Below the pieces are notes generated by a model, which saw only the letters and a program-made list of their open reading frames with translations, was not told the origin of the DNA and searched no databases. A program made the position numbers and the translations under genes. From NCBI GenBank assembly GCA_002686365.1, contig NZBZ01000004.1:98752-162751 (forward strand): a stretch of DNA of 64,000 nt, given 5' to 3'. Below are positions 9,727 to 63,527 of this stretch, one piece after another (position 1 is the first letter of the stretch; the number at the start of each line of letters is the position of its first letter). The stretch comes from a bacterium. GTDB lineage: Bacteria > Patescibacteriota > Minisyncoccia > UBA6257 > GWB1-50-10.

Positions 9727-9886
9727 TCTCTTTTTCTCGTTCGTAAGTCTCCACACATTAAAATTCTTTATTCGCTCATTACGGCAATTTGCCGCCCTGT
9801 TTCGCTTTGCTCCACGGGCACCCGGCAAATTGTCTATTCGCTCATAGAATTTAAGATGTGTTTCAACACACTCACTCTGAAAAAAA
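9727..9886 (+). repeat. Interspersed repeat family A, copy 1 (~160 bp); other copies at 48329-48485 and 63338-63495
   Basis: The copies are ~95% identical and each starts 1-9 nt after a stop codon (proS, uppS, and the hypothetical gene ending at 63336). The element carries a 12-bp inverted repeat, CGGCAATTTGCCG versus CGGCAAATTGCC, and an internal ATTCGCTCAT direct repeat. No ORF is conserved across the copies. Confidence 0.7.
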
Positions 9887-15565: not shown

Positions 15566-15593
15566 AGAAGTGTTTCCGTGTTTCTTTATTACT

Positions 15594-16049
15594 ATGGCTA
15601 AATATCTTACTAAAAAGAGGTATGGGGAATTAAAGGAGAAGCTTGATGAGCTTAAAAATAGTGGGCGTCGCGAGATTGCGGCGCGTCTTAAACACGCGAA
15701 GTCGTTTGGAGATCTTTCTGAGAACTCCGAATATCAGGAGGCGCGGGATTCTCAAAGACAGCTTGAGCGTCGTATTGGGGAGCTTGAGGAAGTTGTTCGA
15801 ACATCGCAGATTATTGAAAAGGCGGGAGAGTCTGAAGAGGTAGGGGTTGGCAGTAAGGTAACACTAAAGAAAAATGGGGATGAGATGGTTTATACGATTG
15901 TTGGATCGAATGAGGCGCAGCCCACACAGGGACTTATTTCTAATGAGTCTTTGATTGGTCAGGCGCTTTTAGGAAAGAAGTCCGGGGAGAGCTTTGAGGT
16001 TGAAACGCCGGCTGGAAAGATGACATATAAAATTCTTGATATAGAATAA
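15594..16049 (+). CDS. greA: Transcription elongation factor GreA
   Basis: MAKYLTKKRYGELKEKLDELK...RREIAARLKHAKSFGDLSENSEYQEARD... The ATG at 15594 is preferred over the track's GTG at 15570. Confidence 0.8.
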   Translation: MAKYLTKKRYGELKEKLDELKNSGRREIAARLKHAKSFGDLSENSEYQEARDSQRQLERRIGELEEVVRTSQIIEKAGESEEVGVGSKVTLKKNGDEMVYTIVGSNEAQPTQGLISNESLIGQALLGKKSGESFEVETPAGKMTYKILDIE

Positions 16050-16074
16050 TAACTAGGGTTGTAGACACTAGTTT

Positions 16075-17882: not shown

Positions 17883-19130
17883 ATGTTGGACGTTAATTTA
17901 ATTCGTAAAGAGCCGGATAAGGTTCGTGAGGGAGTAGAGAAGAAGGGAGTTGATCCAAAGCTCGTGGATGATTTTTTGGCTGTTGATGAGAAGTGGCGTG
18001 GTATTGTTGCATCTTTAGATGAGCTTCGGTCAAAGCAGAATGAGATTACTGATAAACTTTCAGCCGGTAAGAAGGATGATTTGATTGAGGAGGCAAAAAA
18101 GTTTAAGGAGAAAATTTCGAAACTTGAGGATGAATCGAAGGGGCTGGAGAATGAGCGGAATAAGATTTTGAATGATTTGCCGAACATTCCGTTTAGAGAT
18201 GTACTAGTTGGAAAAGATGAGAATGAAAATAAAGTTCTTCGAAAAGAGGGCAAGAAGCCAAAGTTTGGTTTTAAAGTAAAAGATTCGTTTTCTCTTGGCG
18301 AGGATTTGGGAATTATTGATACGAAAAAGGCATCTCAAGTTGCAGGTACGCGATTTGGATATCTGAAGGGAGATGCTGTGATGCTTCAGTTTGCTCTTAT
18401 GCGTCTTGGGTTTGAAATGCTTATGAAGGATGGGTTTGTTCCAGTTCTTCCTCCTGTGATGATTAAGCCGGAGGTTTTCGCGGGAATGGGGCGTCTTGCA
18501 GCAGATCAGGAGCAGGAGCGGTATCATTTTTCAAAAGATGATTTGTATCTTGTAGGAAGCGCAGAGCATACGCTCGGTCCTTTGCATATGAAAGACACTT
18601 TGGATTCAAAAGATCTTCCGAGGCGGTATGTTGGGTACTCTACTTGCTTTCGTCGTGAGGCAGGGTCTTATGGAAAGGATACAAAGGGAATTTTTCGAGT
18701 GCATCAGTTTGATAAACTTGAGATGTTTTCGTTTGTAGATCCGGAGAAGTCGGGAGAGGAGCATGAGTTTATGCTTTCTTTGCAGGAGAAGCTGATGCAG
18801 AAGCTGGAGCTGCCGTATCAGGTGGTTGATATTTGTACAGGAGATATGGGATGGACTGATGCAAAGCAGTACGATATTGAGGTGTGGTTTCCTAGTGAGG
18901 ACAGGTATCGTGAGACACATTCCTGCTCAGATACAACTGATTTTCAGGCGCGGGGAATTGGTGCAAAGTATCGAAAGGATGGTAAGACGGAATTTTTGCA
19001 CATGTTAAACGCTACTGTGTTTTCACAGCGTCCGCTTCTTGCGATTTTGGAAAACTATCAGAAGAAAGATGGGACTATTGAAGTTCCGAAAGTTTTGCAG
19101 AAGGACATGGGGAAGAAGGTTATTGGATAG
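17883..19130 (+). CDS. serS: Seryl-tRNA synthetase
   Basis: N-terminal coiled-coil (MLDVNLIRKEPDKVREGVEKKG...) and a class II core (...FRREAGSYGKDTKGIFRVHQFDKLE...). Confidence 0.85.
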   Translation: MLDVNLIRKEPDKVREGVEKKGVDPKLVDDFLAVDEKWRGIVASLDELRSKQNEITDKLSAGKKDDLIEEAKKFKEKISKLEDESKGLENERNKILNDLPNIPFRDVLVGKDENENKVLRKEGKKPKFGFKVKDSFSLGEDLGIIDTKKASQVAGTRFGYLKGDAVMLQFALMRLGFEMLMKDGFVPVLPPVMIKPEVFAGMGRLAADQEQERYHFSKDDLYLVGSAEHTLGPLHMKDTLDSKDLPRRYVGYSTCFRREAGSYGKDTKGIFRVHQFDKLEMFSFVDPEKSGEEHEFMLSLQEKLMQKLELPYQVVDICTGDMGWTDAKQYDIEVWFPSEDRYRETHSCSDTTDFQARGIGAKYRKDGKTEFLHMLNATVFSQRPLLAILENYQKKDGTIEVPKVLQKDMGKKVIG

Positions 19131-19151
19131 GATTTAGGCGATAGAAATAAA

Positions 19152-19186
19152 GAGGCGCATCTTGGTAGATGCGTCTTTTTTTCGTA
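19152..19186 (+). terminator. Rho-independent terminator after serS (GGCGCATC-TTGGTA-GATGCGTC plus T7)
   Basis: The hairpin is followed by TTTTTTT. Confidence 0.5.
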
Positions 19187-23253: not shown

Positions 23254-23440
23254 TACTTTCTCTTTCCTCGTTTCGTGCGCTTCGCTCGAATTTTCTCATC
23301 TTTACTTGTCGTAAGAAATAACGAAATTTCGCGAACTCGCTTCGCTCAAACACCGCTCGATTTCTATTTCTTGATACTCCTCGTTCAGTGAGCATTCTCT
23401 CGCTACGCGATACTCAACAAAGGAAAGATAAAGTATCTTT
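23254..23440 (+). repeat. 3'-UTR repeat family B, copy after groEL
   Basis: ...CGCGAACTCGCTTCGCTCAAACACCGCTCGATTTCTATTTCTTGATAC... and ...CGCGATACTCAACAAAGGAAAG... are shared with the copies at 2037, 61340 and 57916. Confidence 0.45.
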
Positions 23441-23562: not shown

Positions 23563-23952
23563 CTAGGAGGTCGCCGAGAGTTCCGGGTCCTCGGGTTCGT
23601 CATCGAGGAGCGCCATGCTAGCTGCTTGCGGGTCGAAGTGCTCGGGGAGCTTAGTCGTGTCACTATAGCTTGCCCCGAGAAGTTTCGCTCCTGCAAGGTC
23701 TGTCTTGCTAAGATCCGCCCCCCGAAGATCTGCTCCGTGAAGATTCGCGTCTCGGAGATTCGTTTCGAGAAGAGTCGCTCCTCGGAGACTTGCTCCGCGG
23801 AAATCTGCGCCTTGTAGGTTTGCCATGCTTAGGCTTGCCATGCGTAGGTCTGCCCCTGGCGCGTGTACTCCGGGTCCGAGAGCGAGGACGACGGTAACAG
23901 TGAGCCTGCCGTTCTCTTGGTTCAGGGTCGTGATCGTGCGGGGCTTGTGCAT
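23563..23952 (-). CDS. Pentapeptide-repeat protein (129 aa) in a GC-rich islet
   Basis: Tandem A(D/N)LxG pentapeptides (ANLQGADFRGASLRGATLLETNLRDANLHGADLRGADLSKTDLAGAKL). GC content looks far above the genome background. Confidence 0.6.
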   Translation of the reverse strand: MHKPRTITTLNQENGRLTVTVVLALGPGVHAPGADLRMASLSMANLQGADFRGASLRGATLLETNLRDANLHGADLRGADLSKTDLAGAKLLGASYSDTTKLPEHFDPQAASMALLDDEPEDPELSATS

Positions 23953-24155
23953 CTTGGACTCCTGTTTCAGGTTGTTTCTGGGGAGTGGTAGCGCGGGGTT
24001 GAAGAGGGGTTGGGCCTTGAGCTTCTTAGCTTGTTATGTTGTATGATATTTTTGTCTTTGTGTCAATGTTTTTTGATTTTGTCTGGCTTTTGGTTTTTTG
24101 CGCTAGTGGGGTATAATGCTAAAAAGGCCGGATTAGTTAAATATTAAGTATTTTT

Positions 24156-24734
24156 ATGTTTTTAGGTATTTCTATTGGTTTGTGGGTTGTTATCGGGGTC
24201 GTTCTTATTGTTGTACTGTGGTTTATCGGTACATATAACCGATTTGTGCGGCTTAGGAATCGCGTAGATGAGGCATGGTCGGATATTGACGTGCAGTTAA
24301 AGCGTCGCGCTAATCTTATCCCTAATGTTATAGAGACTGTAAAGGGGTATGCAAAGCATGAAGAGGGAGTGTTTACAAAGGTAACAGATGCTAGAACGCG
24401 TGTGATGGATGCGGAGAAAAAGGGTGACGTAAAGGGAACAGCACAGGCTGAAAATATGCTTTCCGGCGCACTGAAGACTCTTTTCGCGGTTTCAGAGAAT
24501 TATCCTGATTTGAAGGCAAATGCGAACTTTTTGGATTTGCAGAGAGAGCTTGCTGATACAGAGAATAAGATTCAGGCATCACGCAGATTCTATAACACGA
24601 ACGTGAAAGAACTGAACGTGAAGATAGATTCTGTGCCGAGCAATGTTGTGGCAAGTATGATTGGCGTTAAGAAGCGTGAGTACTTTGAGGTTGAGGAAGA
24701 GGGAGAAAGGAAGCCGACTAAGGTTAGCTTCTAG
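24156..24734 (+). CDS. lemA: LemA family membrane protein
   Basis: An N-terminal TM segment followed by ...YNRFVRLRNRVDEAWSDIDVQLKRRANLIPN... (LemA signature). Confidence 0.75.
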   Translation: MFLGISIGLWVVIGVVLIVVLWFIGTYNRFVRLRNRVDEAWSDIDVQLKRRANLIPNVIETVKGYAKHEEGVFTKVTDARTRVMDAEKKGDVKGTAQAENMLSGALKTLFAVSENYPDLKANANFLDLQRELADTENKIQASRRFYNTNVKELNVKIDSVPSNVVASMIGVKKREYFEVEEEGERKPTKVSF

Positions 24735-24775
24735 CTTCTAGCTTTTAGCTTATAGCTTCATTAGCTTATAGCTTT
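24724..24775 (+). repeat. Tandem TAGCTTN heptamer repeats (family D), seven units, overlapping the lemA stop codon
   Basis: TTAGCTTCTAGCTTCTAGCTTTTAGCTTATAGCTTCATTAGCTTATAGCTTTT. A 30-nt stretch is identical to the one after rpoD. Confidence 0.55.
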
Positions 24776-26517: not shown

Positions 26518-26557
26518 ACGATGCAGTTATGTGACGGTCGTGCTATAATTGCATCGT
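26518..26557 (+). promoter_or_regulatory. Hairpin element E (arms ACGATGCA/TGCATCGT, inner ACGGTCGTG) overlapping a TATAAT (26544-26549) and the GTG start of the downstream gene
   Basis: It forms a direct repeat pair with 27085-27124 (~85% identical). The -10-like TATAAT is 6 nt before the start codon, so the transcript is likely leaderless. Confidence 0.4.
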
Positions 26558-28077: not shown

Positions 28078-28200
28078 ACCGCGGAGCGACGGGTGAGGAG
28101 GAATTCCTGCCTACCGGCAGGCAGGTCACTCTTACATTCATTTAGCCATTCAACAATTCCATGGAATTGTTGAATGGGCGGGGGAGCGGGAATCCCACCT
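28078..28200 (+). repeat. Repeat family C, copy 1 (X module GAGCGACGGGTGAGGAGGAAT, 30-bp palindrome CATTCAACAATTCCATGGAATTGTTGAATG, Y module GGGCGGGGGAGCGGGAATCCCACCT)
   Basis: Near-identical copy at 31478-31565. Partial Y-X copy at 49937-49990, and a related hairpin at 33926-33948. Confidence 0.6.
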
Positions 28201-31427: not shown

Positions 31428-31477
31428 GACAGCGCGTCAATGAAATTGGTACAGCTACATTATTCGTAGGAGCGACG

Positions 31478-31565
31478 GGTGAGGAGGAATCCCACTCCTA
31501 CATTCATTTAGTCATTCAACAATTCCATGGAATTGTTGAATGGGCGGGTGAGCGGGAATCCCACC
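31478..31565 (+). repeat. Repeat family C, copy 2 (same X, palindrome and Y modules)
   Basis: ...GGAGCGACGGGTGAGGAGGAATCCCACTCCTACATTCATTTAGTCATTCAACAATTCCATGGAATTGTTGAATGGGCGGGTGAGCGGGAATCCCACCT... Confidence 0.6.
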
Positions 31566-34831: not shown

Positions 34832-35464
34832 TTGGTTGCAAGGGTTTGTGCTATAGTGTTATTAAGTATGAGTATATTACGTATCCGTAAAGAGCTTTTA
34901 CCTCTTTTATATGTGAACCTCGCAGTTATCGGGGTGTTTTCAGTCCTCTTTTTTCAGCGGAAGAATTATGAGTTTTTGATTTATGAGGGGGTGGTGGTGT
35001 TTTTCTTTCTTCTTATTATATATAGCGATAAGAAGGTTCAATATCCTTTAGATGTGCTTTGGGGACTTAGCTTCTGGTCTCTTATGCATATGGCAGGGGG
35101 AGGGATTTTTATTAAAGGAGTGAAGCTTTATGAGATGATGATACTTCCGCTTTCTTCTGAGTATTCAATTTTGCGATATGATCAGGTGGTGCATATTATT
35201 GGTTTTGGAGTGGCAACGTATCTGATGTATATTCTTTTGCGACCGCTTTTGGACATGGAAAAAATCACGTGGGTCAGACTTGGTATTGTTGTGGTCATGG
35301 CTGGGCTTGGAGTGGGCGCATTAAATGAGATTATTGAGTTTTCTCTTGTTGTTATTTTGCCGGAAACAGGAGTTGGGGGATATATAAATACCTCGCTTGA
35401 TTTAGTTGCGGACCTTGTTGGAGCGCTTTTGGCGCTTTGGTATATCAAGTTTCGTAAAATTTAG
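34832..35464 (+). CDS. Hypothetical polytopic membrane protein
   Basis: About five TM segments; no recognised motif. Confidence 0.45.
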   Translation: MVARVCAIVLLSMSILRIRKELLPLLYVNLAVIGVFSVLFFQRKNYEFLIYEGVVVFFFLLIIYSDKKVQYPLDVLWGLSFWSLMHMAGGGIFIKGVKLYEMMILPLSSEYSILRYDQVVHIIGFGVATYLMYILLRPLLDMEKITWVRLGIVVVMAGLGVGALNEIIEFSLVVILPETGVGGYINTSLDLVADLVGALLALWYIKFRKI

Positions 35465-35481
35465 AATATAGATAACTCATT

Positions 35482-37404: not shown

Positions 37405-37506
37405 ATAAGTTGATGAGGGTTCTGATTTTGTCTGCGTTGGTTTTTAGCAGGTTGGTTTGAGATTTTTTCCTCCGCCATTTTTGAAAAGAGTGTATAATAA
37501 AAAGCA

Positions 37507-39051
37507 ATGAAAAAGTTTCTAATATTTTTTCTCATTATTTTGATTGGGATTGTGGTGGGGGTGTTTTTGCTTACATCTCGTGATGAGGAGTCTGCATATG
37601 ATACGGTTGAGGCAGAAAGAACCGAGCTTATTCAGGAGGTTAATGTAACAGGAAGTGTTCGGCCTGCTGATGAGGTTCAGCTTGCGTTTGAGAAGGCAGG
37701 AAAGGTTACTTCAGTTTTGGCTCGTGTGGGGAGTCAGGTTCGCACTGGGGATTCGCTTGTTCGGCTTGATAGTGATGAGCTTGAGGCTCAGCTTGCAGGA
37801 GCAGAGGCAACGCTTCAGAAACGAAATGCTGAGCTTGATGAGCTTCTTCGCGGAACTCGTGAAGAGGAGGTGAAGATAAAGGAGTCTGAGCTTGATACAG
37901 CAAAACAGACTCTTCAGAATTATTATGATAATGCACTTACTGTTTTGGACGATGTATATTTGAAGGCGGATGACGCGGTTCTTACTAAGACTGCCGGAGT
38001 TTTTCAGGGCACTGGAGGGGCAAGTATTTATAGTCTTACATTTACGACATGCAATAGTGAGTTGGAGCTGGATGTTGTTGCAGGAAGGGTTCAGAGCGCG
38101 GATAAGCTGAATTCTTGGCTTGGAGAATTAAATGAGTTTGACTCTGGTTTTATTCAGTCTGAGCTTGATGATGCTTTTCAGAGCAGTAAGGCGTATCTCA
38201 CATTTTTCAGAGGCTTTTTGGATGATGTGAGCGCGGCGCTTACTGATAATTGTGTGGCAGATGATTCCTCTTTGGATACATATCGTACAGCTGTAAGTAC
38301 AGCCCGTACGAATATTCTTACAGCGCTTACTTCTATAGATAGTCAGGAACAGGATATTGCTTCACAGAAGATAGCAGTTCAGTCTGCCTTAGACGAGCTT
38401 GATTTGAAGCTTGCTGGCTCAAGGCCGGAGCAGATTTCAGCGCAGAGAGCATTGGTGCTGCAGGCAGAGGCAGATATTGATGTTATTGAGGCTCAAATTA
38501 TAAAGACTGTGCTTATCTCACCTATTGATGGTGTTGTGACATTGCGGGATGTTGAGGTTGGAGAGATTGTGTCTGCCAATACATCAGTTGTTTCTATTAT
38601 TTCTGATGGCGCGTTTGAGATTGAGGCGAATATCCCAGAAGTTGATATTGCAAATGTTAGGGCGGGAAATTTGGCAGAGGTTACTCTTGATCCATATGGA
38701 GATGATGTGAAGTTCAGGGCAAAGGTGCTTTCTATTGATCCTGCAGAGACGGTTATTGACGGCGTTGTTACTTACAAGACTACTCTGCTTTTTGAGGAAG
38801 ATGATTCCCGCATAAGGTCTGGGATGACTGCAAATGTTGATATTCTTACTGCTGAGCGATTTGGTGTGATTACTATTCCTCAACGGACAGTTATATTTAA
38901 GAATGGCTCGAAGATTGTTCGTCTGCTTGAAGGAGAAAAGGTAGTAGAGACAGAGGTTCGCACTGGTCTTAGCGGAACTCATGGAGAGATTGAGATTCTG
39001 GATGGGATTCAGGAAGGGGATATTATTGTTACCTCAATTAGAGAAAAATAA
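37507..39051 (+). CDS. Periplasmic adaptor / membrane-fusion protein (HlyD/MacA-like)
   Basis: N-terminal TM segment, a long coiled-coil (LEAQLAGAEATLQKRNAELDELL...) and C-terminal beta-barrel domains. Confidence 0.7.
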   Translation: MKKFLIFFLIILIGIVVGVFLLTSRDEESAYDTVEAERTELIQEVNVTGSVRPADEVQLAFEKAGKVTSVLARVGSQVRTGDSLVRLDSDELEAQLAGAEATLQKRNAELDELLRGTREEEVKIKESELDTAKQTLQNYYDNALTVLDDVYLKADDAVLTKTAGVFQGTGGASIYSLTFTTCNSELELDVVAGRVQSADKLNSWLGELNEFDSGFIQSELDDAFQSSKAYLTFFRGFLDDVSAALTDNCVADDSSLDTYRTAVSTARTNILTALTSIDSQEQDIASQKIAVQSALDELDLKLAGSRPEQISAQRALVLQAEADIDVIEAQIIKTVLISPIDGVVTLRDVEVGEIVSANTSVVSIISDGAFEIEANIPEVDIANVRAGNLAEVTLDPYGDDVKFRAKVLSIDPAETVIDGVVTYKTTLLFEEDDSRIRSGMTANVDILTAERFGVITIPQRTVIFKNGSKIVRLLEGEKVVETEVRTGLSGTHGEIEILDGIQEGDIIVTSIREK

Positions 39052-39178
39052 TAAATAATAAATGCGTAGCGGATACCCACGCACTCATTTTGTAAACGTG
39101 TAGAGTAGGAGACGGCAAAATGAGTGCGGGATGCTCATATTTCTAGCTACTCGCTGCGCTCGTAAAGAAATATGGCAC

Positions 39179-39901
39179 ATGGCACTCATTGAGGTCAATG
39201 ACTTAGAGAAAACCTATTTTGGAGAGGAGGTAGAGACGCGCGTACTTCACGGGCTTACTTTTGATATTAAAGAGGGCGAGTTTGTAACGATTATGGGTCC
39301 ATCCGGCTCTGGCAAATCTACTCTTATGCATATTTTGGGATTTTTGGACAGATTGACTGGGGGGCGGTATATATTTGACGGGAAGAATGTTGATACGTTT
39401 TCAGACAAGGAGCTTGCTTTGCTTCGCGGTGAGCAGATTGGATTTGTTTTTCAGGCATTTAACTTATTGCCTCGGACTACTTTGTTTGAGAATGTGAAAC
39501 TTCCTCTTACTTATATTAAGAGGCGCGGGAGTATGAAGGACAGGGTTGAGAGCGTGCTTGAAAGTGTTGGGCTTTCTCATCGGCTTCATTATTATACTAA
39601 TCAGATTTCTGGAGGTGAGCAGCAGAGAGCTGCGATTGCGCGCGCCTTAGTGAATGAGCCGTCTGTTGTATTTGCTGATGAGCCCACCGGGAATCTGGAT
39701 TCAAAGTCCGGAGCGCAGGTTATAGAGGTTTTGCAGAAATTAAATGACGCGGGTACTACTATTATCTTGGTTACTCATGATGGGAATCTTGCAAAGAGCG
39801 CAAAGAGGATAATTCATATAAAGGATGGGCTCATTACTACTGATAGTGAGGTAAAGCACAGGAGGATTGCTCGGGATGGGGAGATACATATTAGCGAGTG
39901 A
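39179..39901 (+). CDS. ABC transporter ATP-binding protein (MacB/LolD-type)
   Basis: Walker A GPSGSGKST; signature LSGGEQQRAAIARAL; Walker B VVFADEPTGNLD. The ATG at 39179 is preferred over the track's 39131. Confidence 0.85.
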   Translation: MALIEVNDLEKTYFGEEVETRVLHGLTFDIKEGEFVTIMGPSGSGKSTLMHILGFLDRLTGGRYIFDGKNVDTFSDKELALLRGEQIGFVFQAFNLLPRTTLFENVKLPLTYIKRRGSMKDRVESVLESVGLSHRLHYYTNQISGGEQQRAAIARALVNEPSVVFADEPTGNLDSKSGAQVIEVLQKLNDAGTTIILVTHDGNLAKSAKRIIHIKDGLITTDSEVKHRRIARDGEIHISE

Positions 39902-39951
39902 CCTGTAACGTGGGACCAGTAACCAGTAATTTGTAACCTGTAGTTCGTACA

Positions 39952-41205
39952 ATGATTCAGATGTTTGCACAATCTGTTCGGATGGCAATTACTGCTCTCC
40001 TTTCTAACAAAGGAAGGAGCTTTTTAACTATGCTTGGGATTATTATTGGTGTTTCAGCTGTGATTATTATTGTTTCTATTGGGGCTGGAGCGCAGAGTAT
40101 GATTTTGTCGCAGATTGAGGATTTGGGAACTAATCTGGTTGGCGTTATGCCCGGATATTCTGAAGAGGGTTCTCCTCCTACTTCTGTTATGGGCATTGTT
40201 ATTACTACTCTTACCTATGAAGATGCGATGGCTTTGGGGGAGAAGAGAAATGTTCCGAATATTGTAGAGGCGGTTGCGTATTATAAGAGTGTTGGGACTG
40301 TGACGTGGAGGTCTGAGTCGTATGATACGAATTTGAATGGTGTGAGTGCGGGCTATCTTGATGTGGAGGGCGGTGAGATAGAGAAGGGACGATTTTTTAC
40401 AGAAGAGGAGGAGAGAACTTTGGGAAGAGTTGCAATTTTGGGCAGCGCTGTTCGAGATGAGCTCTTTGGCCCGTCTGAAGCAATAGGGCAGAAGGTAAAG
40501 ATTGAGAATCAGGCATTTGAGGTGATTGGAGTTATGGAGGAGCGTGGGGTTGTTGCTATGCAGGATTATGATGATCAGGTGTTTGTTCCGGTTCGTACTA
40601 TGCAGAAACTCGTTGCAGGCGTAAATCATCTAGGGCTTATTCGCGCTAAAGTTGATTCAGAGGATAATATAAATGCTGCATTGGAAGACATTAGAGCAGT
40701 GCTTAGGGAGCGTCATGATATTCGGGATTCGAGCGGGGCAGGTGATGATTTTACGGTTCGGAGCGCAACGCAGGCGCTTGAGATGATTACTTCTATTACT
40801 GATGGGCTTAGATTTTTTCTTGCTGGAATGGCAGCTCTTTCTTTGATTGTTGGGGGGGTGGGAATAATGAATATTATGCTTATCTCTGTTGCAGAGAGGA
40901 CGCGGGAGATTGGTTTGCGTAAGGCGATTGGCGCGGACAATCTTCATGTGTTTATTCAATTTTTGGCAGAGGCGATTACCATTACTGTTTTGAGCGGAGC
41001 TTTGGGAGTTGTTGGCGGAATTCTTATCTCGTATCTTATCTCGCTTGGCGTGCAGTTTGCCGGATTTGACTGGGAGTTTATTGTTTCTCCTTTTTCAGTA
41101 GGCTTGGCTTTATCAGTATCTCTTTTTGTTGGACTTTTGTTTGGTATGTATCCCGCAAGTAAGGCGTCTCGGCTCGATCCTATTGATGCTTTACGATACG
41201 AATAG
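39952..41205 (+). CDS. ABC transporter permease, MacB periplasmic core domain + FtsX
   Basis: N-terminal TM segment, a large periplasmic domain and a C-terminal FtsX four-TM bundle (...AIGADNLHVFIQFLAEAITI...). Confidence 0.75.
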   Translation: MIQMFAQSVRMAITALLSNKGRSFLTMLGIIIGVSAVIIIVSIGAGAQSMILSQIEDLGTNLVGVMPGYSEEGSPPTSVMGIVITTLTYEDAMALGEKRNVPNIVEAVAYYKSVGTVTWRSESYDTNLNGVSAGYLDVEGGEIEKGRFFTEEEERTLGRVAILGSAVRDELFGPSEAIGQKVKIENQAFEVIGVMEERGVVAMQDYDDQVFVPVRTMQKLVAGVNHLGLIRAKVDSEDNINAALEDIRAVLRERHDIRDSSGAGDDFTVRSATQALEMITSITDGLRFFLAGMAALSLIVGGVGIMNIMLISVAERTREIGLRKAIGADNLHVFIQFLAEAITITVLSGALGVVGGILISYLISLGVQFAGFDWEFIVSPFSVGLALSVSLFVGLLFGMYPASKASRLDPIDALRYE

Positions 41206-41231
41206 GACATAAGATATAGGACATAAGACAC

Positions 41232-48328: not shown

Positions 48329-48485
48329 ATCCTTTTTCTCGTTCGTAAGTCTCCACACATTAAAATTCTTTATTTGCTCATTACGGCAATTTGCCGCCCT
48401 GTTTCGCTTTGCTCCACGGGCACCCGGCAAATTGCCTATTCGCTCATAGAATTTAAGATGTGTTTCAACACACTCACTCTGAAAA
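48329..48485 (+). repeat. Interspersed repeat family A, copy 2
   Basis: Starts 2 nt after the uppS TAA; ~95% identical to copies 1 and 3. Confidence 0.7.
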
Positions 48486-48619
48486 ATAATTTTATTTTTC
48501 TATGGGAAGTCGTTCTAGGTGCTTTTTACAAAGTAACTTTTTTAAGTCGTCTCAAGAAAGAAAAGATGAATTGTGAGTAATAGAATTTTTCCTCATTCTG
48601 TAGTGGGATGGAGGAGGTC

Positions 48620-54254: not shown

Positions 54255-54716
54255 ATGAAGAAATTTTTAATTTTTGTGATTTTGGTGGCTGCAGTCGGGG
54301 TTTTGGTATTTTTGCTTCGAACAGATAGGAGTCTTTTGCCTGGGTCTGGAGATGAAGGTTCGGAAGATGCGGCGACAGAGGAGGATGCTGCTGCAGACTA
54401 TGGAGAAAATACAATAGTGTACACTGATGATGGATTCTCTCCTGTTGAGATTATTGTAAGTGTTGGTGAGATAGTTACATTTGTGAATGACTCAAGCCGT
54501 GTGGTTTGGCCTGCGACAGCAGAGCATCCTACACATACTGTCTATCCTGGGAGTGATATAACAAAGTGTGATTCTGCAGAGGCAGCAGATATGTTTGACT
54601 CCTGTGGACCTGTGATGTCAGATGAGAGTTGGTCTTTTGCGTTTGATGAGGTAGGAGAGTGGGGATACCACGATCATCTGGATTCTAGTTATTTTGGAAA
54701 AGTTATCGTTGAATAA
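54255..54716 (+). CDS. Secreted or membrane-anchored cupredoxin-like protein (plastocyanin/amicyanin fold suspected)
   Basis: An N-terminal TM or signal segment. GEIVTFVNDSSRVVWPATAEHPTH resembles the amicyanin GDTVTWVN.D..HN strand. The C-terminal YHDHL...GKVIV lacks the canonical Cys. Confidence 0.35.
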   Translation: MKKFLIFVILVAAVGVLVFLLRTDRSLLPGSGDEGSEDAATEEDAAADYGENTIVYTDDGFSPVEIIVSVGEIVTFVNDSSRVVWPATAEHPTHTVYPGSDITKCDSAEAADMFDSCGPVMSDESWSFAFDEVGEWGYHDHLDSSYFGKVIVE

Positions 54717-54744
54717 CTTCGTTAGCTTATTAGCTTCAGATCCG
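54717..54744 (+). repeat. TAGCTT-type short repeat (family D) immediately after the stop codon
   Basis: CTTCGTTAGCTTATTAGCTTCAG. Confidence 0.4.
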
Positions 54745-54807
54745 TTGTTCTTTATAGAGCGGCGGATTTGTTTTGCTTTTGGGTTTTTGAGTGATAGAAT
54801 CTAGGTA

Positions 54808-56538
54808 ATGTCTGGTGAGGTTGAAGAGATAAAAAAGAGGATTGACGTGGTGGAGTTTTTGAAGGGTTATCTGGACTTACAGCCGGCTGGGAAGAATTTT
54901 AAGGCGCTTTGTCCATTTCACTCGGAGAAGACGCCGTCTTTTGTTGTGTCTCCTGATAGATCAAGGTGGCACTGCTTTGGCTCGTGCGGAGAGGGAGGTG
55001 ACATCTTCACCTTTCTTATGAAGTATGAGAATTTGGAGTTTTATGAGGCGCTTCAGGTTTTAGCAGAACGGGCAGGAGTTCCTTTGAGACAGCTTGATCC
55101 GCAGAAGCAGAAAGAGTTTGGAATTCTGTACGATATTAATGAGGAGGCAAATAATTTCTTTCAAGAAGAGTTAAAGAAGAATGAGGAGGCATTAGGATAT
55201 CTTCGGGCGCGTGGTTTGAAGGATAAAACTATAGAGGAGTTTGAGCTTGGTTATTCGCCCGGAGGTGAGGCTCTTACTATGCACTTACTTCAGAAGGGTC
55301 ATTCTATTGAGGATATTGTTCGTGCCGGAGTTTCGTATAAAAATAGGCGGGGTATGTATTGGGATAAGTTTCAGCGCAGGATTATGTTTCCTATTGCCAG
55401 CGGCGTAGGCAAGACAGTAGCGTTTACCGGACGGATGATGCCTTCGGATGAGGAGCGCGGGATTGAGGCGCCGAAATATTTGAATAGTCCCGAAACTCTT
55501 ATTTTCAGCAAATCAAAGATTTTGTACGGGCTTCATCTTTCAAAAAGAGACATTTCAAAGTCGAGGACTGCGTTTTTAGTGGAGGGGCAGATGGATGTTT
55601 TGATGGCGTGGCAGTCAGGAGTGAAAAATGTTATTGCAGTCTCTGGTACCGGACTTACGCAGTTTCATCTGCAGAGACTTGGGCGTATTGCTGATACTAT
55701 ACTTCTTAGTTTTGATAATGATGAGGCAGGGCTGAAAGCTATGGAGCGTGGACTTGATATTTTTGGTGATTTCGACTTTTATGTTAAGGTAGTTCATTTG
55801 GGGGAGCATAAGGATCCGGCAGATGCTGCGCAGGCGGATCCTGAATTTTTGAAAGGCGCGATGGAGAAGGCGCGAGGCGCGTTTACCAATCTTTTTGAGA
55901 CTCGTTTTCATGGGGTTCAGGGGGATGATGTGGCAGAGCGGAAGCGGTTAGTTCGGCACTTTCTTTCAAAGATAAGGGGGGTTCGAAGCGCTACAGAGCA
56001 GGATGCATGGATAAAGGAGCTTTCTAGAGTGTCTGGAGTGCCGGAGACAGCTCTTCTTGAGGAGTTTTCTTCAGCTGAAGCGCCTTCTTCCGGTAGCCCT
56101 AATGTGATTTCTGAGGCAGAGGGTAGTGAATCTGAAACATTGGATTTTTCTTCCTCGAATCTTCAGAGAGTTGATAGGATTTGCAGAAGGTTGTTTTCTT
56201 TAGCGTTTGCCTATGATGGATTTCTTGAAGAGCTAAAAAAGAAGGCAGAGCTTGTTCCTAATGAATATAGGAAGATGCTTGATAATCCAGAGAGTGAAGA
56301 TGCACTTCAATTTAGTATGCAGGGGACGTATAATGCAGGAGATTTGGAAGAAGAGATACTTCAGGCAGAATTTGAGGGTCTTTTACTTCAGCTTCATATA
56401 GAGGCGTTAAAGAGGCAGAAGAATGAGATTCGTACAAAAATACGTGAATCAGAACAGCAGGGGTCAGAGGAGGATTCCTTGCGATTTTTAGAAGAGTTTC
56501 AGCAGGTTGCGATTGAGATGGATAAGTTGAAGCAGTAA
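54808..56538 (+). CDS. dnaG: DNA primase
   Basis: Zinc-binding CPFHSEKTPSF...WHCFGCGEGGD and TOPRIM (...FLVEGQMDVLM...). Confidence 0.85.
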   Translation: MSGEVEEIKKRIDVVEFLKGYLDLQPAGKNFKALCPFHSEKTPSFVVSPDRSRWHCFGSCGEGGDIFTFLMKYENLEFYEALQVLAERAGVPLRQLDPQKQKEFGILYDINEEANNFFQEELKKNEEALGYLRARGLKDKTIEEFELGYSPGGEALTMHLLQKGHSIEDIVRAGVSYKNRRGMYWDKFQRRIMFPIASGVGKTVAFTGRMMPSDEERGIEAPKYLNSPETLIFSKSKILYGLHLSKRDISKSRTAFLVEGQMDVLMAWQSGVKNVIAVSGTGLTQFHLQRLGRIADTILLSFDNDEAGLKAMERGLDIFGDFDFYVKVVHLGEHKDPADAAQADPEFLKGAMEKARGAFTNLFETRFHGVQGDDVAERKRLVRHFLSKIRGVRSATEQDAWIKELSRVSGVPETALLEEFSSAEAPSSGSPNVISEAEGSESETLDFSSSNLQRVDRICRRLFSLAFAYDGFLEELKKKAELVPNEYRKMLDNPESEDALQFSMQGTYNAGDLEEEILQAEFEGLLLQLHIEALKRQKNEIRTKIRESEQQGSEEDSLRFLEEFQQVAIEMDKLKQ

Positions 56539-56541
56539 TAT

Positions 56542-57873
56542 ATGGCTACTAAAAGAAAAAAAACTACAAGCTCACGAACTCGAAAAAAGACAAAAGTTCG
56601 AAAGAATGCAGCTCCTCGGAAAAAGGCGTCTAAGAAACGGGCACAGAAGAGAGCTGCGCGAGGCCGTAAGCCGACAAAGAGACAGCCTCGAAAAACTTCG
56701 TCTCGTGGCAGGCCTAAAAAGACTTCTGCGCAGGTTCGTAAGGCGTATCCGCGTAAGAAAGTTCCGCGCAGGAAGCTTACAAAAAAGCAGCAGGAGCTTT
56801 TGGATGAGTATAATAAGCGGCTTGATGATCTTGCATATCGTGGGCGGTCCCGCGGATTTGTTACTGATTCAGAGGTCTTGAGTTTCTTCCCTGATATTGA
56901 GCAGTATCTTCCATTTTTGGAGACTGTGTATGAGCGTCTTGAAAATGATGGAATTAAGATTCGTGAGTCATCTTCTTTGAAGGGCGATGTTCGGGAGGAG
57001 ATCTCCGCGAAGGAGTTAAAGGATGCTACGCGTATTGGGCAGGACTTGCCGGATGCAGTACAGATGTATTTGAAAGAGATTGGGCGGACTCTATTGCTTA
57101 CTTCAAAGGATGAGAAGGAGCTTGCAAAACGCGCTGAAGGAGGAGATGAGGAGGCGCGTAAGAAACTTATTCAGGCGAACTTGAGACTCGTTGTCTCTAT
57201 CGCAAAGCGGTATGTGAATCGCAGTCCGCATCTTTCGATTTTGGATTTGATTCAGGAGGGGAATATTGGGCTTTCGCGGGCGGTTGATAAGTTTGATTAT
57301 CGAAAGGGATTTAAGTTTTCAACGTATGCAACATGGTGGATTCGTCAGGCGATTACTCGCGCTCTTGCGGATTATTCTAGGACAATCCGCATACCTGTGC
57401 ATATGGTTGAGACGATTACAAAATATACACAGTTGAAGCGGCGGCTTATGCAGGAGCTTGGGCGTGAGCCATTGCCGGAAGAGGTGGCAGCAGAGATGGG
57501 TGTGGAGGTAGATAAGGTGCATTATATTCAGAAGATTTCACAAGAGGTTGTATCTTTAGAGGCGCCAATTGGAGATGATGAGGAGGACTCGGTTTTATCT
57601 GATTTTATTAAGGATGAGCAGAGTTTGTCTCCGGACCAGCAGGCAAGTTTTGGGCTTTTGAAAGATCAGATTCGGGAGGTAATGTCAGACCTTAGTGAGC
57701 GGGAGAGGAAAATTTTGTCTATGCGGTTTGGGCTGGATGATGGAATTTCTCGTACTCTTGAGGAGGTTGGAAAGGTGTTTGGAGTTACACGTGAGAGGAT
57801 TCGGCAGATTGAGGCAAAGGCTTTAGAGAAGATTAGGCAGAATGATAAGGTTAGGAAGTTGGAGGGATATTAA
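56542..57873 (+). CDS. rpoD: RNA polymerase sigma factor RpoD with an ~85-aa Lys/Arg-rich N-terminal tail
   Basis: Regions 2-4 are conserved (...[29 protein letters not shown]..., ...[23 protein letters not shown]...). The N-terminus reads [51 protein letters not shown]... Confidence 0.9.
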
Positions 57874-57915
57874 CGTTAGCTTTTAGCTTATAGCTTCATT
57901 AGCTTTTAGGTTTTC
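57874..57915 (+). repeat. Tandem TAGCTTN heptamers (family D) directly after the rpoD stop
   Basis: CGTTAGCTTTTAGCTTATAGCTTCATTAGCTTTTAG shares a 30-nt identical stretch with 24740-24770. A B-family fragment follows (GCGATACTCAAAGACGAAAAGGA). Confidence 0.55.
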
Positions 57916-58076
57916 GCCTTTTTCTTTGTTTTCGTCGTTTAATATTTCATTTCCTCACTTTGCGATACTCAAAGACGAAAAGGATGTGTGCTTCCTAGCC
58001 TTTTCATTTTTTGAGAGGTTGGGGGGTGGATGGTTATTGACACTGGGCCTGTAGAGTGTAGGATATAGGCCATTAT

Positions 58077-59402
58077 ATGAGATATCTTTCTTTTCTGGTT
58101 TTTGGCTTTATTTTTTTTGGCCTTGTAATTGGAGCGCGAGTTATAGGGGATAATCCGGGAGGCCGGGCTCTTTTAACTGAGCCAAAGATTTCCAGAACAA
58201 GAACAATGCCGGGAAGTTCTTTGTACTTTTTTAAGGAGTTTCGTAGGAGCATTGATCAGGCGCTTTCATTTGGAAGTCTTTCAAAAATTCGAAATCGGCT
58301 AGATGTTCTTGATGAGCGCCTTGGCGAGCTGCATGAGCTTTTAGTGCATCGTGAGGCTTCTCCAGATGAGTTTTTGAGTGTTTCAGGGGAGTATCAGAAT
58401 GATTTAGATTATATTCGTTCGAAGATTGGCGCGTCTGAAGAACGCGCTTTGGATTTTTCAGATGAGTTTTTGGAGAGGACTTTTTATCATTTCCAGATTT
58501 TTGAGAAGCTTCGATGGGAAGTTCCTGAATTTCGTTCTGATGTAGTTTTTTTGGAGGAGAAGATGCTTGAGACAGCGGCATTTGTTTTTGGTATAGCAGG
58601 GGATGGGGCAGAGGTTGATACTGATATATTTGAAAAAAACTCTCTTCCTGGGCTTCAGTTTCTTCAGAAATTTGCTGATTTTTTGCCGGCAGCAATTTCT
58701 CGCGCGCGTGTTTCCGCGGCCAAGCAGGAAATTGTTTCCATTCTTCGGGGATACTACTTAGCTAACGAACTTTCTCCTACCAGCCTTGTTGGATTTTTAA
58801 TAGATGAGGCGAATGGTGATTTTATTTCTCGCGTGAGGGCTGTAGATGTTTTGCGGGAGGGTTTTCAGGATGAGGAGATGAAGAATCAGCTTGTATTTTT
58901 GCGGCAGAAGATGTTTGAGGAAGTTGATGCGTCTTTGTTTTTTGAGGATGGAGTGATTGATGATGAGATTGAGCGTCTTTCTTCTTTTATTTCTGAGCTT
59001 AGGGAAAATGATGCTGATTTGAGTGAGGATCTGCAGGAGAAGTTAGAGAAGGCGGAGTTTACTTATGATAGATCTCTTGAGTTTTATTCTTCAGGGCTTT
59101 ATGATCGGGTGTTTAGCCAGCTTTCTCTTACTTCTGTAACTTTGGATTCTTTGCTTTTGGATGTTTCTCTTCCTTCTGCTTTTTTTGAACACTCTGTAAA
59201 TTCTTTGAAGAATGAGTTTGAGTCGTTGAAGGGTAAGATTGACGGCAATGGAGAGGATGGTGTTATTTCGGAATTTTTTCATGAGGCAGAGGAGAATATC
59301 GCGGAACTTTTGGTTTCTATAGGACAGGAAGTTTCTTTTGACTTTCGTCTTATTTCTAGAACCAAGTCTATTTTGGTGGCGTTGAGGGAGGCGCTTCGTT
59401 AG
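58077..59402 (+). CDS. Hypothetical membrane-anchored helical protein
   Basis: An N-terminal TM segment; Glu/Leu/Phe-rich and predicted helical; no motif. Confidence 0.45.
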   Translation: MRYLSFLVFGFIFFGLVIGARVIGDNPGGRALLTEPKISRTRTMPGSSLYFFKEFRRSIDQALSFGSLSKIRNRLDVLDERLGELHELLVHREASPDEFLSVSGEYQNDLDYIRSKIGASEERALDFSDEFLERTFYHFQIFEKLRWEVPEFRSDVVFLEEKMLETAAFVFGIAGDGAEVDTDIFEKNSLPGLQFLQKFADFLPAAISRARVSAAKQEIVSILRGYYLANELSPTSLVGFLIDEANGDFISRVRAVDVLREGFQDEEMKNQLVFLRQKMFEEVDASLFFEDGVIDDEIERLSSFISELRENDADLSEDLQEKLEKAEFTYDRSLEFYSSGLYDRVFSQLSLTSVTLDSLLLDVSLPSAFFEHSVNSLKNEFESLKGKIDGNGEDGVISEFFHEAEENIAELLVSIGQEVSFDFRLISRTKSILVALREALR

Positions 59403-59459
59403 CTTATAGCTTCGTTAGCTTTCAGCTTCGTTAGCTTCTGGAGCTTCCGGAGCTTTTTT
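59393..59459 (+). repeat. Family D repeat variant (GCTTCGTTAGCTTATA x3, then GCTTC(T/C)GGAGCTT) overlapping the stop codon
   Basis: GCTTCGTTAGCTTATAGCTTCGTTAGCTTTCAGCTTCGTTAGCTTCTGGAGCTTCCGGAGCTTTTTT. Confidence 0.5.
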
Positions 59460-63336: not shown

Positions 63337-63337
63337 A

Positions 63338-63495
63338 CTCCTTTTTCTCGTTCGTAAGTCTCCACACATTAAAATTCTTTATTCACTCATTACGGCAATT
63401 TGCCGCCCTGTTTCGCTTTGCTTCACGGGCACCCGGCAAATTGCCTATTCGCTCATAGAATTTAAGATGTGCTCCAACACACTCACTCTGAAAAA
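63338..63495 (+). repeat. Interspersed repeat family A, copy 3
   Basis: Starts 2 nt after the TAA at 63334-63336. Confidence 0.7.
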
Positions 63496-63527
63496 GGAGT
63501 TTATTCTTATGGGTTTATGGGAGGTCT

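What the first reader, a model, noticed from the sequence alone, without database searches (positions are those of the whole stretch)
24724..24775. TAGCTTN heptamer tandem repeats placed exactly at stop codons of four genes (also 54717-54744, 57874-57915, 59393-59459)
After lemA, the cupredoxin-like gene, rpoD and the 58077-59402 gene, the stop codon is embedded in 4-8 tandem copies of (T)TAGCTT(A/C/T). A 30-nt stretch (TAGCTTTTAGCTTATAGCTTCATTAGCTT) is identical after lemA and rpoD. Each unit contains the self-complementary AGCT and an in-frame-capable TAG. Such arrays could be protein-binding arrays, stop-codon context elements, or slipped-strand hotspots. I know of no described motif like it.
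Basis: seen in the sequence. Interest (0 to 1): 0.55.

Follow-up and report, generated by a model that had tools for sequence, protein, structure and literature searches.

The report
Stop-codon-anchored 7-base repeat arrays
Short runs of a 7-base unit that starts with a stop codon (here mostly TAGCTTN) sit exactly at the ends of several genes in this tiny marine bacterium and its close relatives; they are a lineage-specific version of the 7-base intergenic repeats already known in bacteria, and they put a stop codon into every reading frame right after the gene.

Summary
Four + strand TAGCTT arrays start at, or within 3 nt of, the stop codons of lemA, a cupredoxin-like gene, rpoD and a DUF5667 gene. 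A fifth sits at the rpsF stop just outside the window. Chance placement is about 1e-6.

TAGCTT is not the essential feature. The same genome has other stop-registered period-7 chains, such as TAGGACA/TAAGATA, GTAANNN and TAGgatt-TAGgcga-TAG. Close relatives (83-90% RpoD identity; Jorgensenbacteria/Wolfebacteria-like Parcubacteria) carry (TAG/TAA N4)n arrays with other units (TAGAAAG, TAGAATC, TAGAAGC, TAATTTC), sometimes at the same gene ends. TAR at +7 and +14 after a TAR stop occurs in 12 of 126 clade genes against 2 of 574 in a broad bacterial sample (p=5e-8).

The arrays do not fold better than shuffles. They lie in the spacer before terminators, promoters or the next ATG.

They belong to the known class of over-represented heptameric intergenic repeats, whose function is unknown. 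The nearest described cases are the TAACTGA and GGGAATC repeats.

Best reading: slippage duplicated a heptamer containing the stop codon, and the copies are tolerated, perhaps weakly favoured, as stops in all three frames. The function is inferred, not shown.

The parts
24725..24774 (+). Array 1: seven TAGCTT units with spacers C, C, T, A, CAT, A. The lemA stop TAG at 24732-24734 is the TAG of unit 2. A T-rich run (TTTTATTTTT) follows.
   Evidence: Stops fall in frames 2,0,1,2,0,0,1 relative to lemA.
54714..54736 (+). Array 2: TAACTTCGT TAGCTTAT TAGCTT. The stop TAA of the cupredoxin-like gene (54255-54716) is a degenerate first unit.
   Evidence: Only frames 0 and 2 are closed by this short array.
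54737..54780 (+). Canonical intrinsic terminator (15-pair stem plus T-rich tail) immediately after array 2.
   Evidence: -31.2 kcal/mol, z -5.9.
57871..57913 (+). Array 3: rpoD stop TAA, CGT, four TAGCTT units (57877, 57884, 57891, 57900) and one TAGGTT. A 29-nt stretch is identical to part of array 1.
   Evidence: All three frames are closed.
59393..59459 (+). Array 4: GCTTCGT (last codons of the DUF5667 gene), then TAGCTTA TAGCTTCGT TAGCTTTC AGCTTCGT TAGCTT CTGG AGCTT CCGG AGCTT TTTTT. The stop TAG at 59400 is the first unit. The last units form a 7-pair hairpin (59436-59452) followed by T6.
19128..19150 (+). Stop-registered heptad chain with unrelated spacers: TAGgatt TAGgcga TAGaaa TAA, after gene 17883-19130. 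A hairpin terminator follows at 19154-19175.
39899..39951 (+). Period-7 array (NNNGTAA)n that starts at the TGA stop of gene 39131-39901 and fills the spacer to the next ATG (39952).
41203..41231 (+). TAGGACA TAAGATA TAGGACA TAAGACA C: starts with the stop of gene 39952-41205 and ends 1 nt before the next ATG (41232).
16047..16074 (+). TAA TAA C TAG ggttg TAG acac TAG ttt, after gene 15570-16049 and up to the next ATG. Stops are spaced 7-8 nt apart.
39049..39063 (+). TAATAAA TAATAAA T at the stop of gene 37507-39051. A low-complexity period-7 repeat.
35462..35474 (+). TAGaata TAGa TAA at the stop of gene 34832-35464. A weak example.

Best explanation
These are stop-codon-registered heptanucleotide simple-sequence repeats.

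Origin. In this marine Parcubacteria lineage, a 7-nt segment that begins with a gene's own stop codon (TAG or TAA plus 4 nt) was tandemly duplicated. The likely cause is replication slippage, the process thought to make 7-nt units the commonest long simple repeat in bacteria. Copies then became similar across gene ends within one genome. That is why this genome uses mostly TAGCTTN and its relatives use TAGAAAG, TAGAATC, TAGAAGC or TAATTTC.

Effect. Seven is not a multiple of three, so three or more units put a stop codon into each reading frame within about 14-21 nt of the gene end. (The shortest array, array 2, closes only frames 0 and 2.) The arrays occupy the only slack DNA in these packed genomes: the spacer between the stop codon and the terminator hairpin, T-run, promoter or next start codon.

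Why they persist. I think they persist because they are harmless there. They may also be weakly favoured as a frame-independent translational stop, or insulator. Such a stop would keep read-through or frameshifted ribosomes out of the terminator and off the next gene's start.

Shown: position, strand, register with the stop, period 7, unit diversity, enrichment in the clade, and lack of self-structure.

Inferred: origin by slippage, copying between loci, and the insulator function.
For: - Position and register: 5 of 5 TAGCTT arrays on the 83-kb scaffold are on the gene strand with the gene's stop in array register. Chance is about 9e-7.
- Period 7: TRF finds periods 7, 14, 16 and 21. Period 7 dominates intergenic tandem repeats in the clade, with 12 of 13 period-7 arrays intergenic.
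- TAGCTT is not needed: other stop-registered heptads occur in the same genome and in relatives. They include orthologous ends: the cupredoxin-like gene in the window, L126 and L128; the dnaG-rpoD junction in L126, L211 and L214; and the rpoD end in the window, L128 and L211.
- Clade enrichment: TAR at +7 occurs in 21 of 126 clade genes against 28 of 574 in a broad sample (p=2e-5). TAR at +7 and +14 occurs in 12 of 126 against 2 of 574 (p=5e-8). The relatives alone, which were chosen without regard to the finding, give p=2.5e-8.
- Stop content: 13 of 17 period-7/14 units contain TAR in sense, against about 35% expected (p=6e-4). Unit variants TAACTT and TAGGTT, and the TAG/TAA alternation, all keep a stop.
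- Context: arrays precede terminators, a T-run, a promoter or the next ATG.
- Known class: heptameric repeats are over-represented and attributed to slippage (PMC4679880, PMC4692102). They lie close to the 5'-neighbour ORF, including overlapping stop codons on the coding strand. TAGCTT arrays in other CPR genomes follow the same rule: median 7 nt to the 5' gene against 51 nt to the 3' gene, and 19 against 3 arrays within 10 nt.
Against: - No copy-number difference was seen between independent assemblies. Those assemblies are nearly identical, so this is a weak test.
- Local slippage alone does not explain why five gene ends share one unit, or why two arrays share a 29-nt stretch with the irregular CAT spacer. 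Some copying between loci, or a common selective target, is needed, and I have no mechanism for the first insertion at a new gene end.
- Array 2 closes only two frames, and several arrays have more units than three-frame closure needs.
- A large survey found no selection for in-frame fail-safe stops in bacteria generally (PMC6764699).
- GGGAATC arrays follow the same anchoring rule without containing stops. Anchoring therefore does not require stop codons.
- In more distant CPR genomes, half of the TAGCTT arrays are antisense and abut start codons, or form inverted pairs. The insulator idea does not predict this.
Confidence: 0.45

Rival explanations
1. Purely neutral microsatellites. Heptamer slippage products survive only where a 7-nt indel is harmless: the stop codon plus the short spacer after it. 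The stop register and three-frame stops are by-products with no function.
For: - Heptamers are the commonest long simple repeat in bacteria, and their function is unknown.
- The arrays come and go between relatives with 83-90% RpoD identity, and they are absent at 77-78%.
- Copy numbers exceed any functional need.
- A rough tolerance model, with 5 stop-including positions against a 10-25 nt spacer, already predicts that 20-55% of new duplications include the stop.
Against: - Stop-including arrays outnumber stop-adjacent stop-free ones by about 12 to 2, which is more than the rough null predicts.
- TAG is kept at exact 7-nt spacing at the dnaG-rpoD junction in three genomes while the N4 positions differ.
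- Chains such as TAGgatt TAGgcga TAG keep only the stops.
- The orientation rule in the CPR-wide sample, 19 against 3, is not expected from an orientation-blind process.
Confidence: 0.25
2. A platform for an RNA-binding protein that reads RNA in a 7-nt register. Candidates are a HutP-like hexamer, which binds (XAG N4)3, or cold-shock-domain proteins with a heptanucleotide footprint. Bound just upstream of terminators, the protein would tune termination or antitermination, or mRNA 3'-end stability.
For: - (UAG N4) with three or more repeats is exactly the HutP site-I pattern, and HutP sites flank a terminator stem (PMC2425495).
- The arrays are strand-specific, unstructured and lie directly 5' of terminator hairpins.
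- Cold-shock and S1 proteins were proposed as binders of TAACTGA repeats (PMC4679880).
- Units are genome-specific.
Against: - Several unrelated units coexist in one genome.
- TAA-based arrays (TAATTTC, GTAANNN, TAAGATA) lack the G that HutP reads.
- There is no second XAG-rich site 12-17 nt downstream.
- The arrays occur at many unrelated housekeeping genes and also between cotranscribed genes with no terminator (41203-41231; the dnaG-rpoD junction in relatives).
- No candidate protein was identified.
Confidence: 0.15
3. Structural RNA or DNA element. The array would be the stem of an unconventional terminator, through register-slipping AGCU pairing. Or it would be one arm of an intercistronic hairpin that links a stop codon to the next start codon, as in other CPR genomes.
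For: - AGCT is self-complementary.
- The last units of array 4 form a hairpin followed by T6.
- In other CPR genomes, TAGCTT arrays pair with AAGCTA arrays across whole intergenic spacers. This includes the spacers between ribosomal-protein genes in L103.
Against: - Arrays 1 and 3 fold no better than shuffles (z +0.9 and 0.0). Array 4 is only marginal (z -1.5).
- The window has only 8 AAGCTA hexamers, none next to an array, so there is no partner arm.
- Units such as TAGAAAG and TAATTTC have no palindrome.
Confidence: 0.07
4. A mobile or recombination-related DNA element: a small array-bearing cassette that inserts at TAG/TAA, or a recombination or uptake site, spread within and between CPR genomes.
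For: - Arrays 1 and 3 share 29 nt including the irregular CAT spacer. The sub-motif TAGCTT-CRT-TAGCTT recurs in distant CPR lineages.
- About a quarter of the 118 genome hits for a three-unit TAGCTT pattern are CPR genomes. By my estimate from outside knowledge, not checked with a tool here, CPR make up only a few percent of species.
- L103 carries at least five near-identical modules in 8 kb.
Against: - No terminal inverted repeats, target-site duplications or transposase are linked to the window arrays.
- Relatives use different units at the same sites.
Confidence: 0.08

Closest known systems
Over-represented heptameric intergenic simple sequence repeats (Mrazek 2007, as cited in PMC4679880 and PMC4692102), e.g. 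GGGAATC in Xanthomonas and GGGGAYT in Nostoc (PMC4692102)
   Same: 7-nt unit, 2-8 head-to-tail copies and intergenic location. The arrays lie next to the 5'-neighbour ORF on its coding strand, including overlap with the stop codon. They are found at housekeeping genes. Length and sequence differ between related genomes, and function is unknown.
   Different: Here the unit begins with the stop codon itself, in register. Several unrelated stop-bearing units coexist in one genome. There is no G-quadruplex potential. The host is a CPR bacterium with very short spacers, so the distance to the ORF is 0-3 nt rather than about 28 nt.
TAACTGA direct repeats of marine Beggiatoaceae, cyanobacteria and Bacteroidetes (MacGregor 2015, PMC4679880)
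   Same: A heptamer carrying stop codons, in sense orientation between ORFs, with stops in all three frames. It has 2-6 copies with 'split' variant units, no predicted RNA structure and some arrays overlapping the end of the upstream ORF. It occurs in genomes with few Shine-Dalgarno sites.
   Different: TAACTGA arrays are anchored on the downstream start codon, most often ending 1 nt before it, and use one fixed unit. The window arrays are anchored on the upstream stop codon and use varying units. Only 41203-41231 and the dnaG-rpoD arrays of relatives touch both.
HutP binding site of the Bacillus subtilis hut terminator (PMC2425495), and the TRAP (G/U)AG repeats
   Same: (UAG N4) with three or more repeats in single-stranded RNA, immediately 5' of a terminator stem.
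   Different: HutP needs two XAG-rich sites 12-17 nt apart around one terminator and regulates one operon. Here there are single runs at many genes and TAA-based units, and no HutP gene was identified. TRAP uses 2-3 nt spacers.
Fail-safe tandem or additional stop codons, and the 'ambush' idea of out-of-frame stops (PMC6764699, PMC1088959, PMC5909447)
   Same: Extra stop codons just after the real stop that would catch read-through or frameshifted ribosomes.
   Different: The classic cases are single in-frame codons at +1 to +6 codons. Here they are periodic, mostly out of frame, and made by tandem duplication. Bacteria in general show no enrichment of in-frame additional stops.
REP/BIME elements and uptake-sequence pairs in terminators
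   Same: Short repeated elements placed directly after stop codons. In other CPR genomes the TAGCTT arrays form inverted pairs, as these elements do.
   Different: The window arrays are direct repeats only, with no palindrome and no associated transposase.

Membership tests
Heptameric intergenic simple sequence repeats | Unit of 7 nt in head-to-tail copies beyond chance | tested here: met
   TRF finds periods 7, 14, 16 and 21 with 2.3-6.9 copies. There are 10 two-unit matches against 0.55 expected.
Heptameric intergenic simple sequence repeats | Intergenic location close to the 5'-neighbour ORF, on the coding strand when downstream, and possibly overlapping the stop codon (PMC4692102) | tested here: met
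   5 of 5 arrays start -7 to +6 nt from a same-strand stop. The CPR-wide TAGCTT sample gives a median of 7 nt on the 5' side against 51 nt on the 3' side.
Heptameric intergenic simple sequence repeats | Copy number or sequence varies between related genomes | tested here: inconclusive
   Arrays are identical in near-identical assemblies. Units and copy numbers differ at orthologous ends in relatives with 83-90% RpoD identity.
TAACTGA-type repeats | Unit TAACTGA | tested here: not met
   The units are TAGCTTN and others.
TAACTGA-type repeats | Forward orientation ending within a few nt of the downstream start codon | tested here: not met
   The TAGCTT arrays end 18-164 nt before the next ATG. 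Only 41203-41231 ends 1 nt before an ATG.
HutP antitermination site | Three XAG triplets separated by 4 nt | tested here: met
   Arrays 1 and 3 have TAG at exact 7-nt spacing (arrays 1, 3, 4); so does the chain at 19128-19150.
HutP antitermination site | A second XAG-rich site 12-17 nt downstream, the two sites flanking a GC-rich terminator stem | tested here: not met
   No TAG or XAG run follows the hairpins at 54737-54770 or 59436-59452.
HutP antitermination site | HutP-family protein encoded in the genome | not tested
   Only 10 window proteins were scanned against Pfam. The genome is incomplete here.
Intrinsic (rho-independent) terminator | Stable GC-rich stem-loop followed by a U tract | tested here: not met
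   The arrays themselves give z +0.9, 0.0 and -1.5 against shuffles. Separate terminators follow array 2, and the last units of array 4 form one.
REP/BIME or MITE-like palindromic element | Imperfect palindrome or terminal inverted repeats | tested here: not met
   No AAGCTA array occurs anywhere in the window. Inverted pairs exist only in other CPR genomes.
Fail-safe additional stop codons | A further in-frame stop within a few codons of the primary stop | tested here: inconclusive
   The next in-frame stop lies at +21 (lemA), +9 (cupredoxin-like) and +6 (rpoD). Within array 4 there is none. Most array stops are out of frame.
Rfam RNA families | Match to a curated covariance model | tested here: not met
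   Only two tRNAs reach the gathering score in the window.

The most novel reading that the evidence does not exclude
(UAR N4)n 'stop-codon heptads' would be a selected class of cis-element in a Parcubacteria clade. They would be read in a 7-nt register by the terminating ribosome or by an abundant RNA-binding protein (HutP-like or cold-shock-domain). Their role would be to couple the end of translation to transcription termination or antitermination, or to re-initiation at the next gene. If so, this would give the long-unexplained excess of heptameric repeats in bacteria its first function.
Probability: 0.15. Interest if true: 0.75.

Novelty: new variant of a known kind. Interest (0 to 1): 0.45.

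Why it matters
Heptameric repeats have been known since 2007 to be the most over-represented long simple repeats in bacterial intergenic DNA, and no function has been shown for them.

This lineage offers a clean case. About one TAR-ending gene in six (21 of 126) has a second stop at +7, and about one in ten also has a third at +14. Unit sequence turns over between relatives, while the stop triplet and the 7-nt spacing persist. That makes selection on stop codons directly testable against plain slippage, using comparative genomics of uncultured CPR bacteria.

There is also a practical use. The arrays mark true gene 3' ends, and they explain the odd 3' flanks seen in these metagenome-assembled genomes.

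Tried and rejected
- Self-folding of the arrays as RNA on both strands: no better than shuffles. Rejected as hairpins or terminators in their own right.
- Rfam: no family matched.
- A TAGCTT-specific conserved motif: rejected as the essential feature, because other units behave the same way.
- Partner AAGCTA arms, as in other CPR genomes: absent from the window.
- Copy-number polymorphism: none between the TARA scaffold and four other assemblies, or between L128 and L129. All of these are near-identical strains, so the test is uninformative for older variation.
- TAG reassigned to a sense codon: rejected. Genes are intact and match Pfam profiles to their ends under the standard code.
- The metagenome search with RpoD was meant to bring in many close relatives. 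It returned mostly distant bacteria. I used them instead as a negative control, and they show no lag-7 signal.
It cannot show that TAGCTT is special or give true frequencies.
- Literature search for the exact arrays: no paper held any of the four array strings searched for. All listed matches were to the general hexamer UAGCUU in unrelated RNAs.

Full report
**Observation.** The four arrays are real and all lie on the + strand.
- Array 1 (24725-24774) has seven TAGCTT units. The lemA stop TAG at 24732 is the TAG of the second unit. The first unit overlaps the last codons (V-S-F), which still match the Pfam LemA profile to its final position.
- Array 2 (54714-54736) reads TAACTTCGT TAGCTTAT TAGCTT. 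It has only two exact units, and the TAA stop sits in a degenerate first unit.
- Array 3 (57871-57913) is the rpoD TAA, then CGT, four TAGCTT units and one TAGGTT.
- Array 4 (59393-59459) starts with the TAG stop of a DUF5667 gene. It decays into AGCTT-only units.
- The stretch shared by arrays 1 and 3 is 29 nt.
- Two-unit matches number 10 against 0.55 expected. Every cluster of three or more AGCTT in the window is one of these arrays, and none lies on the - strand.

**Source and extension.** The window comes from a 137-kb TARA Oceans metagenome scaffold.
- RpoD homologues place the organism among Parcubacteria, near Candidatus Jorgensenbacteria and Wolfebacteria.
- I extended the sequence to 83 kb. 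This revealed a fifth array at the stop of rpsF: TAGCTTA TAACTT TAGCTTC TAGCTTT TAGCTTCAT TAGCTT.
- Five of five arrays are on the gene strand and in register with the stop. Under random intergenic placement the chance is about 9e-7.
- Independent assemblies carry identical arrays.

**TAGCTT is not the essential feature.** The same contig holds other chains of TAG/TAA spaced 7 nt apart that begin with a gene's stop codon:
- TAGgatt TAGgcga TAGaaa TAA (19128);
- an (NNNGTAA)n array (39899);
- TAGGACA TAAGATA TAGGACA TAAGACA, running up to the next ATG (41203);
- weaker cases at 16047, 35462 and 39049.

Syntenic loci from relatives, chosen only by RpoD similarity, show the same thing with different units:
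- L126 (89%) has (TAGAAAG/TAGAAAA/TAGAGAG)n after the cupredoxin-like gene and after dnaG, and (TAAATYC)4 after grx.
- L128 (84%) has TAGAATC and TAGAAGC arrays after the cupredoxin-like gene, alaS and another gene, and (TAANTTN)4 after rpoD.
- L211 (90%) has (TAATTWC)n after rpoD, and TAGAAGC TAGAATA TAAATAT ATG between dnaG and rpoD.
- L214 (88%) has TAGaatc TAGaaag TAGaaTAA after dnaG.

Some gene ends therefore keep an array while its unit changes. The triplet and the 7-nt spacing persist.

**Statistics.** After a TAG/TAA stop, a second TAG/TAA at +7 occurs in:
- 9 of 63 genes on the window's own contig;
- 12 of 63 genes in relatives with at least 83% RpoD identity;
- 28 of 574 genes in a broad bacterial sample of rpoD neighbourhoods.

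Stops at both +7 and +14 occur in 3, 9 and 2 genes respectively. Clade against broad sample gives p=5e-8, and the relatives alone give p=2.5e-8. Other lags show nothing. Two more distant relatives, at 77-78% identity, lack the double signal.

Period 7 dominates the intergenic tandem repeats of the clade. Of 17 period-7/14 units, 13 carry TAR in sense, against about 35% expected (p=6e-4).

**What the arrays are not.**
- They do not fold better than shuffled sequence (z +0.9, 0.0, -1.5).
- They match no Rfam family.
- They have no inverted AAGCTA partner in the window.
- TAG is a genuine stop here, because genes are intact under the standard code.

**Where they sit.** They occupy the spacer after the stop.
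- Array 2 is followed at once by a strong terminator (54737-54770).
- The last units of array 4 form a small hairpin followed by T6.
- Array 1 runs into TTTTATTTTT.
- Array 3 precedes a diverged copy of a larger repeat and a TTGACA/TAGGAT promoter.
- The arrays at 39899 and 41203, and the dnaG-rpoD arrays of relatives, fill the gap to the next ATG.

- About a quarter of these are CPR genomes of many lineages. The rest are mostly long pure microsatellites in other phyla.
- In the CPR loci, the TAGCTT strand has a gene a median of 7 nt from its 5' end and 51 nt from its 3' end.
- Within 10 nt, there are ten sense arrays at stops and nine antisense arrays at start codons, against three in the opposite configuration (p=9e-4).
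- Many CPR loci have inverted pairs spanning the whole spacer. An example is between ribosomal-protein genes in L103: stop-(TAGCTTCAC TAGCTTT)n-short hairpin-(AAGCTAACG)n-ATG.
- These configurations do not occur in the window.

**Literature.**
- Heptanucleotide repeats are reported as the most abundant long simple repeat in bacteria and are attributed to polymerase slippage (Mrazek 2007, as cited in PMC4679880, and PMC4692102).
- Rehm et al. found that GGGAATC and GGGGAYT arrays lie close to the 5'-neighbour ORF whatever its orientation. Downstream arrays are on the coding strand, including all that overlap the stop codon. The genes involved are ordinary and the function is unknown. My CPR sample follows the same rule.
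- MacGregor described TAACTGA arrays that have stops in all frames and sit in sense orientation just upstream of start codons. Some overlap the end of the upstream ORF.
- HutP binds (XAG N4)3 at two sites around a terminator.
- Ho and Hurst found no selection for in-frame additional stops in bacteria in general.

**Interpretation.** The arrays are a lineage-specific variant of the known heptameric intergenic repeats, seeded on and registered with the stop codon.
- Slippage explains the period and the turnover.
- Three observations suggest weak selection for stops in all frames just ahead of terminators and start sites: the preference for stop-bearing units, the persistence of TAR at fixed spacing while N4 varies, and the recurrence at the same gene ends.
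- Plain tolerance in the only slack DNA remains a serious alternative.
- A sequence-specific binder is disfavoured by the mix of units and by the TAA-based arrays.
- Two things remain unexplained. One is how one unit comes to occupy several gene ends in a genome, including the shared 29 nt. The other is why more distant CPR genomes show the antisense-at-start and inverted-pair forms.

Noticed in passing
window 9730-9884, 48330-48506, 63337-63520; diverged copies about 2037-2250, 23254-23440 and 57915-57990: An element of about 180 nt is repeated directly after the stop codons of at least five genes, including hisS-like, groEL and rpoD (after its array). Each copy is followed by a canonical hairpin terminator. 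Three copies are 94-97% identical. There is no Rfam match. A related sequence follows rpoD in relative L126.
   Followed up: partly
window 28080-28160 and 31469-31526: A second short repeat (gagcgacgggtgaggaggaat...cattcaacaattccatg) occurs twice, each time just upstream of, or overlapping, a start codon.
   Followed up: partly
window, e.g. 24110-24156, 26530-26556, 37480-37507, 54790-54808, 58037-58077: Many genes have a TATAAT-like box only 6-14 nt before the start codon and no Shine-Dalgarno sequence. This suggests leaderless or near-leaderless mRNAs. TAG is unusually common as a stop: 32 of 83 genes, against 13 TGA.
   Followed up: no
L103 2440-2680, 5740-5900, 6120-6290, 6630-6800, 7590-7780 (Patescibacteria UBA2135): Inside a ribosomal-protein operon, each gene junction carries a near-identical module: stop-(TAGCTTCAC TAGCTTT)n-ttaggacggacgacaaacgtcgttaactta-(AAGCTAACG)n-ATG. 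The ATG overlaps the last unit. This looks like a hairpin linking one gene's stop to the next gene's start.
   Followed up: partly
L017 and L214 (GCA_030695805.1, labelled Nanoarchaeota archaeon): This MAG encodes a bacterial sigma-70 that is 88% identical to the window's RpoD. It also has a TAGCTT array at a gene stop. It is a Parcubacteria relative that has been mislabelled or mis-binned.
   Followed up: partly
window 23700-23860, - strand ORF 23563-23952: Two 15-nt tandem repeats (5-residue period) lie inside a small - strand ORF that has higher G+C than its surroundings. It is possibly a pentapeptide-repeat protein.
   Followed up: no
L212 1250-1330: After a TGA stop in a close relative, a run of TGACAA, TGACAC and TGACTA units repeats TGA many times. 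It is a TGA-based counterpart of the TAG/TAA arrays, with a different period.
   Followed up: no
L127 9909-10000 and L128 7216-7314: Two relatives share a homologous element of about 90 nt (ccgctccgaaactacgaat...tagattcggatgaat) at different gene ends. This is another mobile or copied intergenic repeat in the clade.
   Followed up: no
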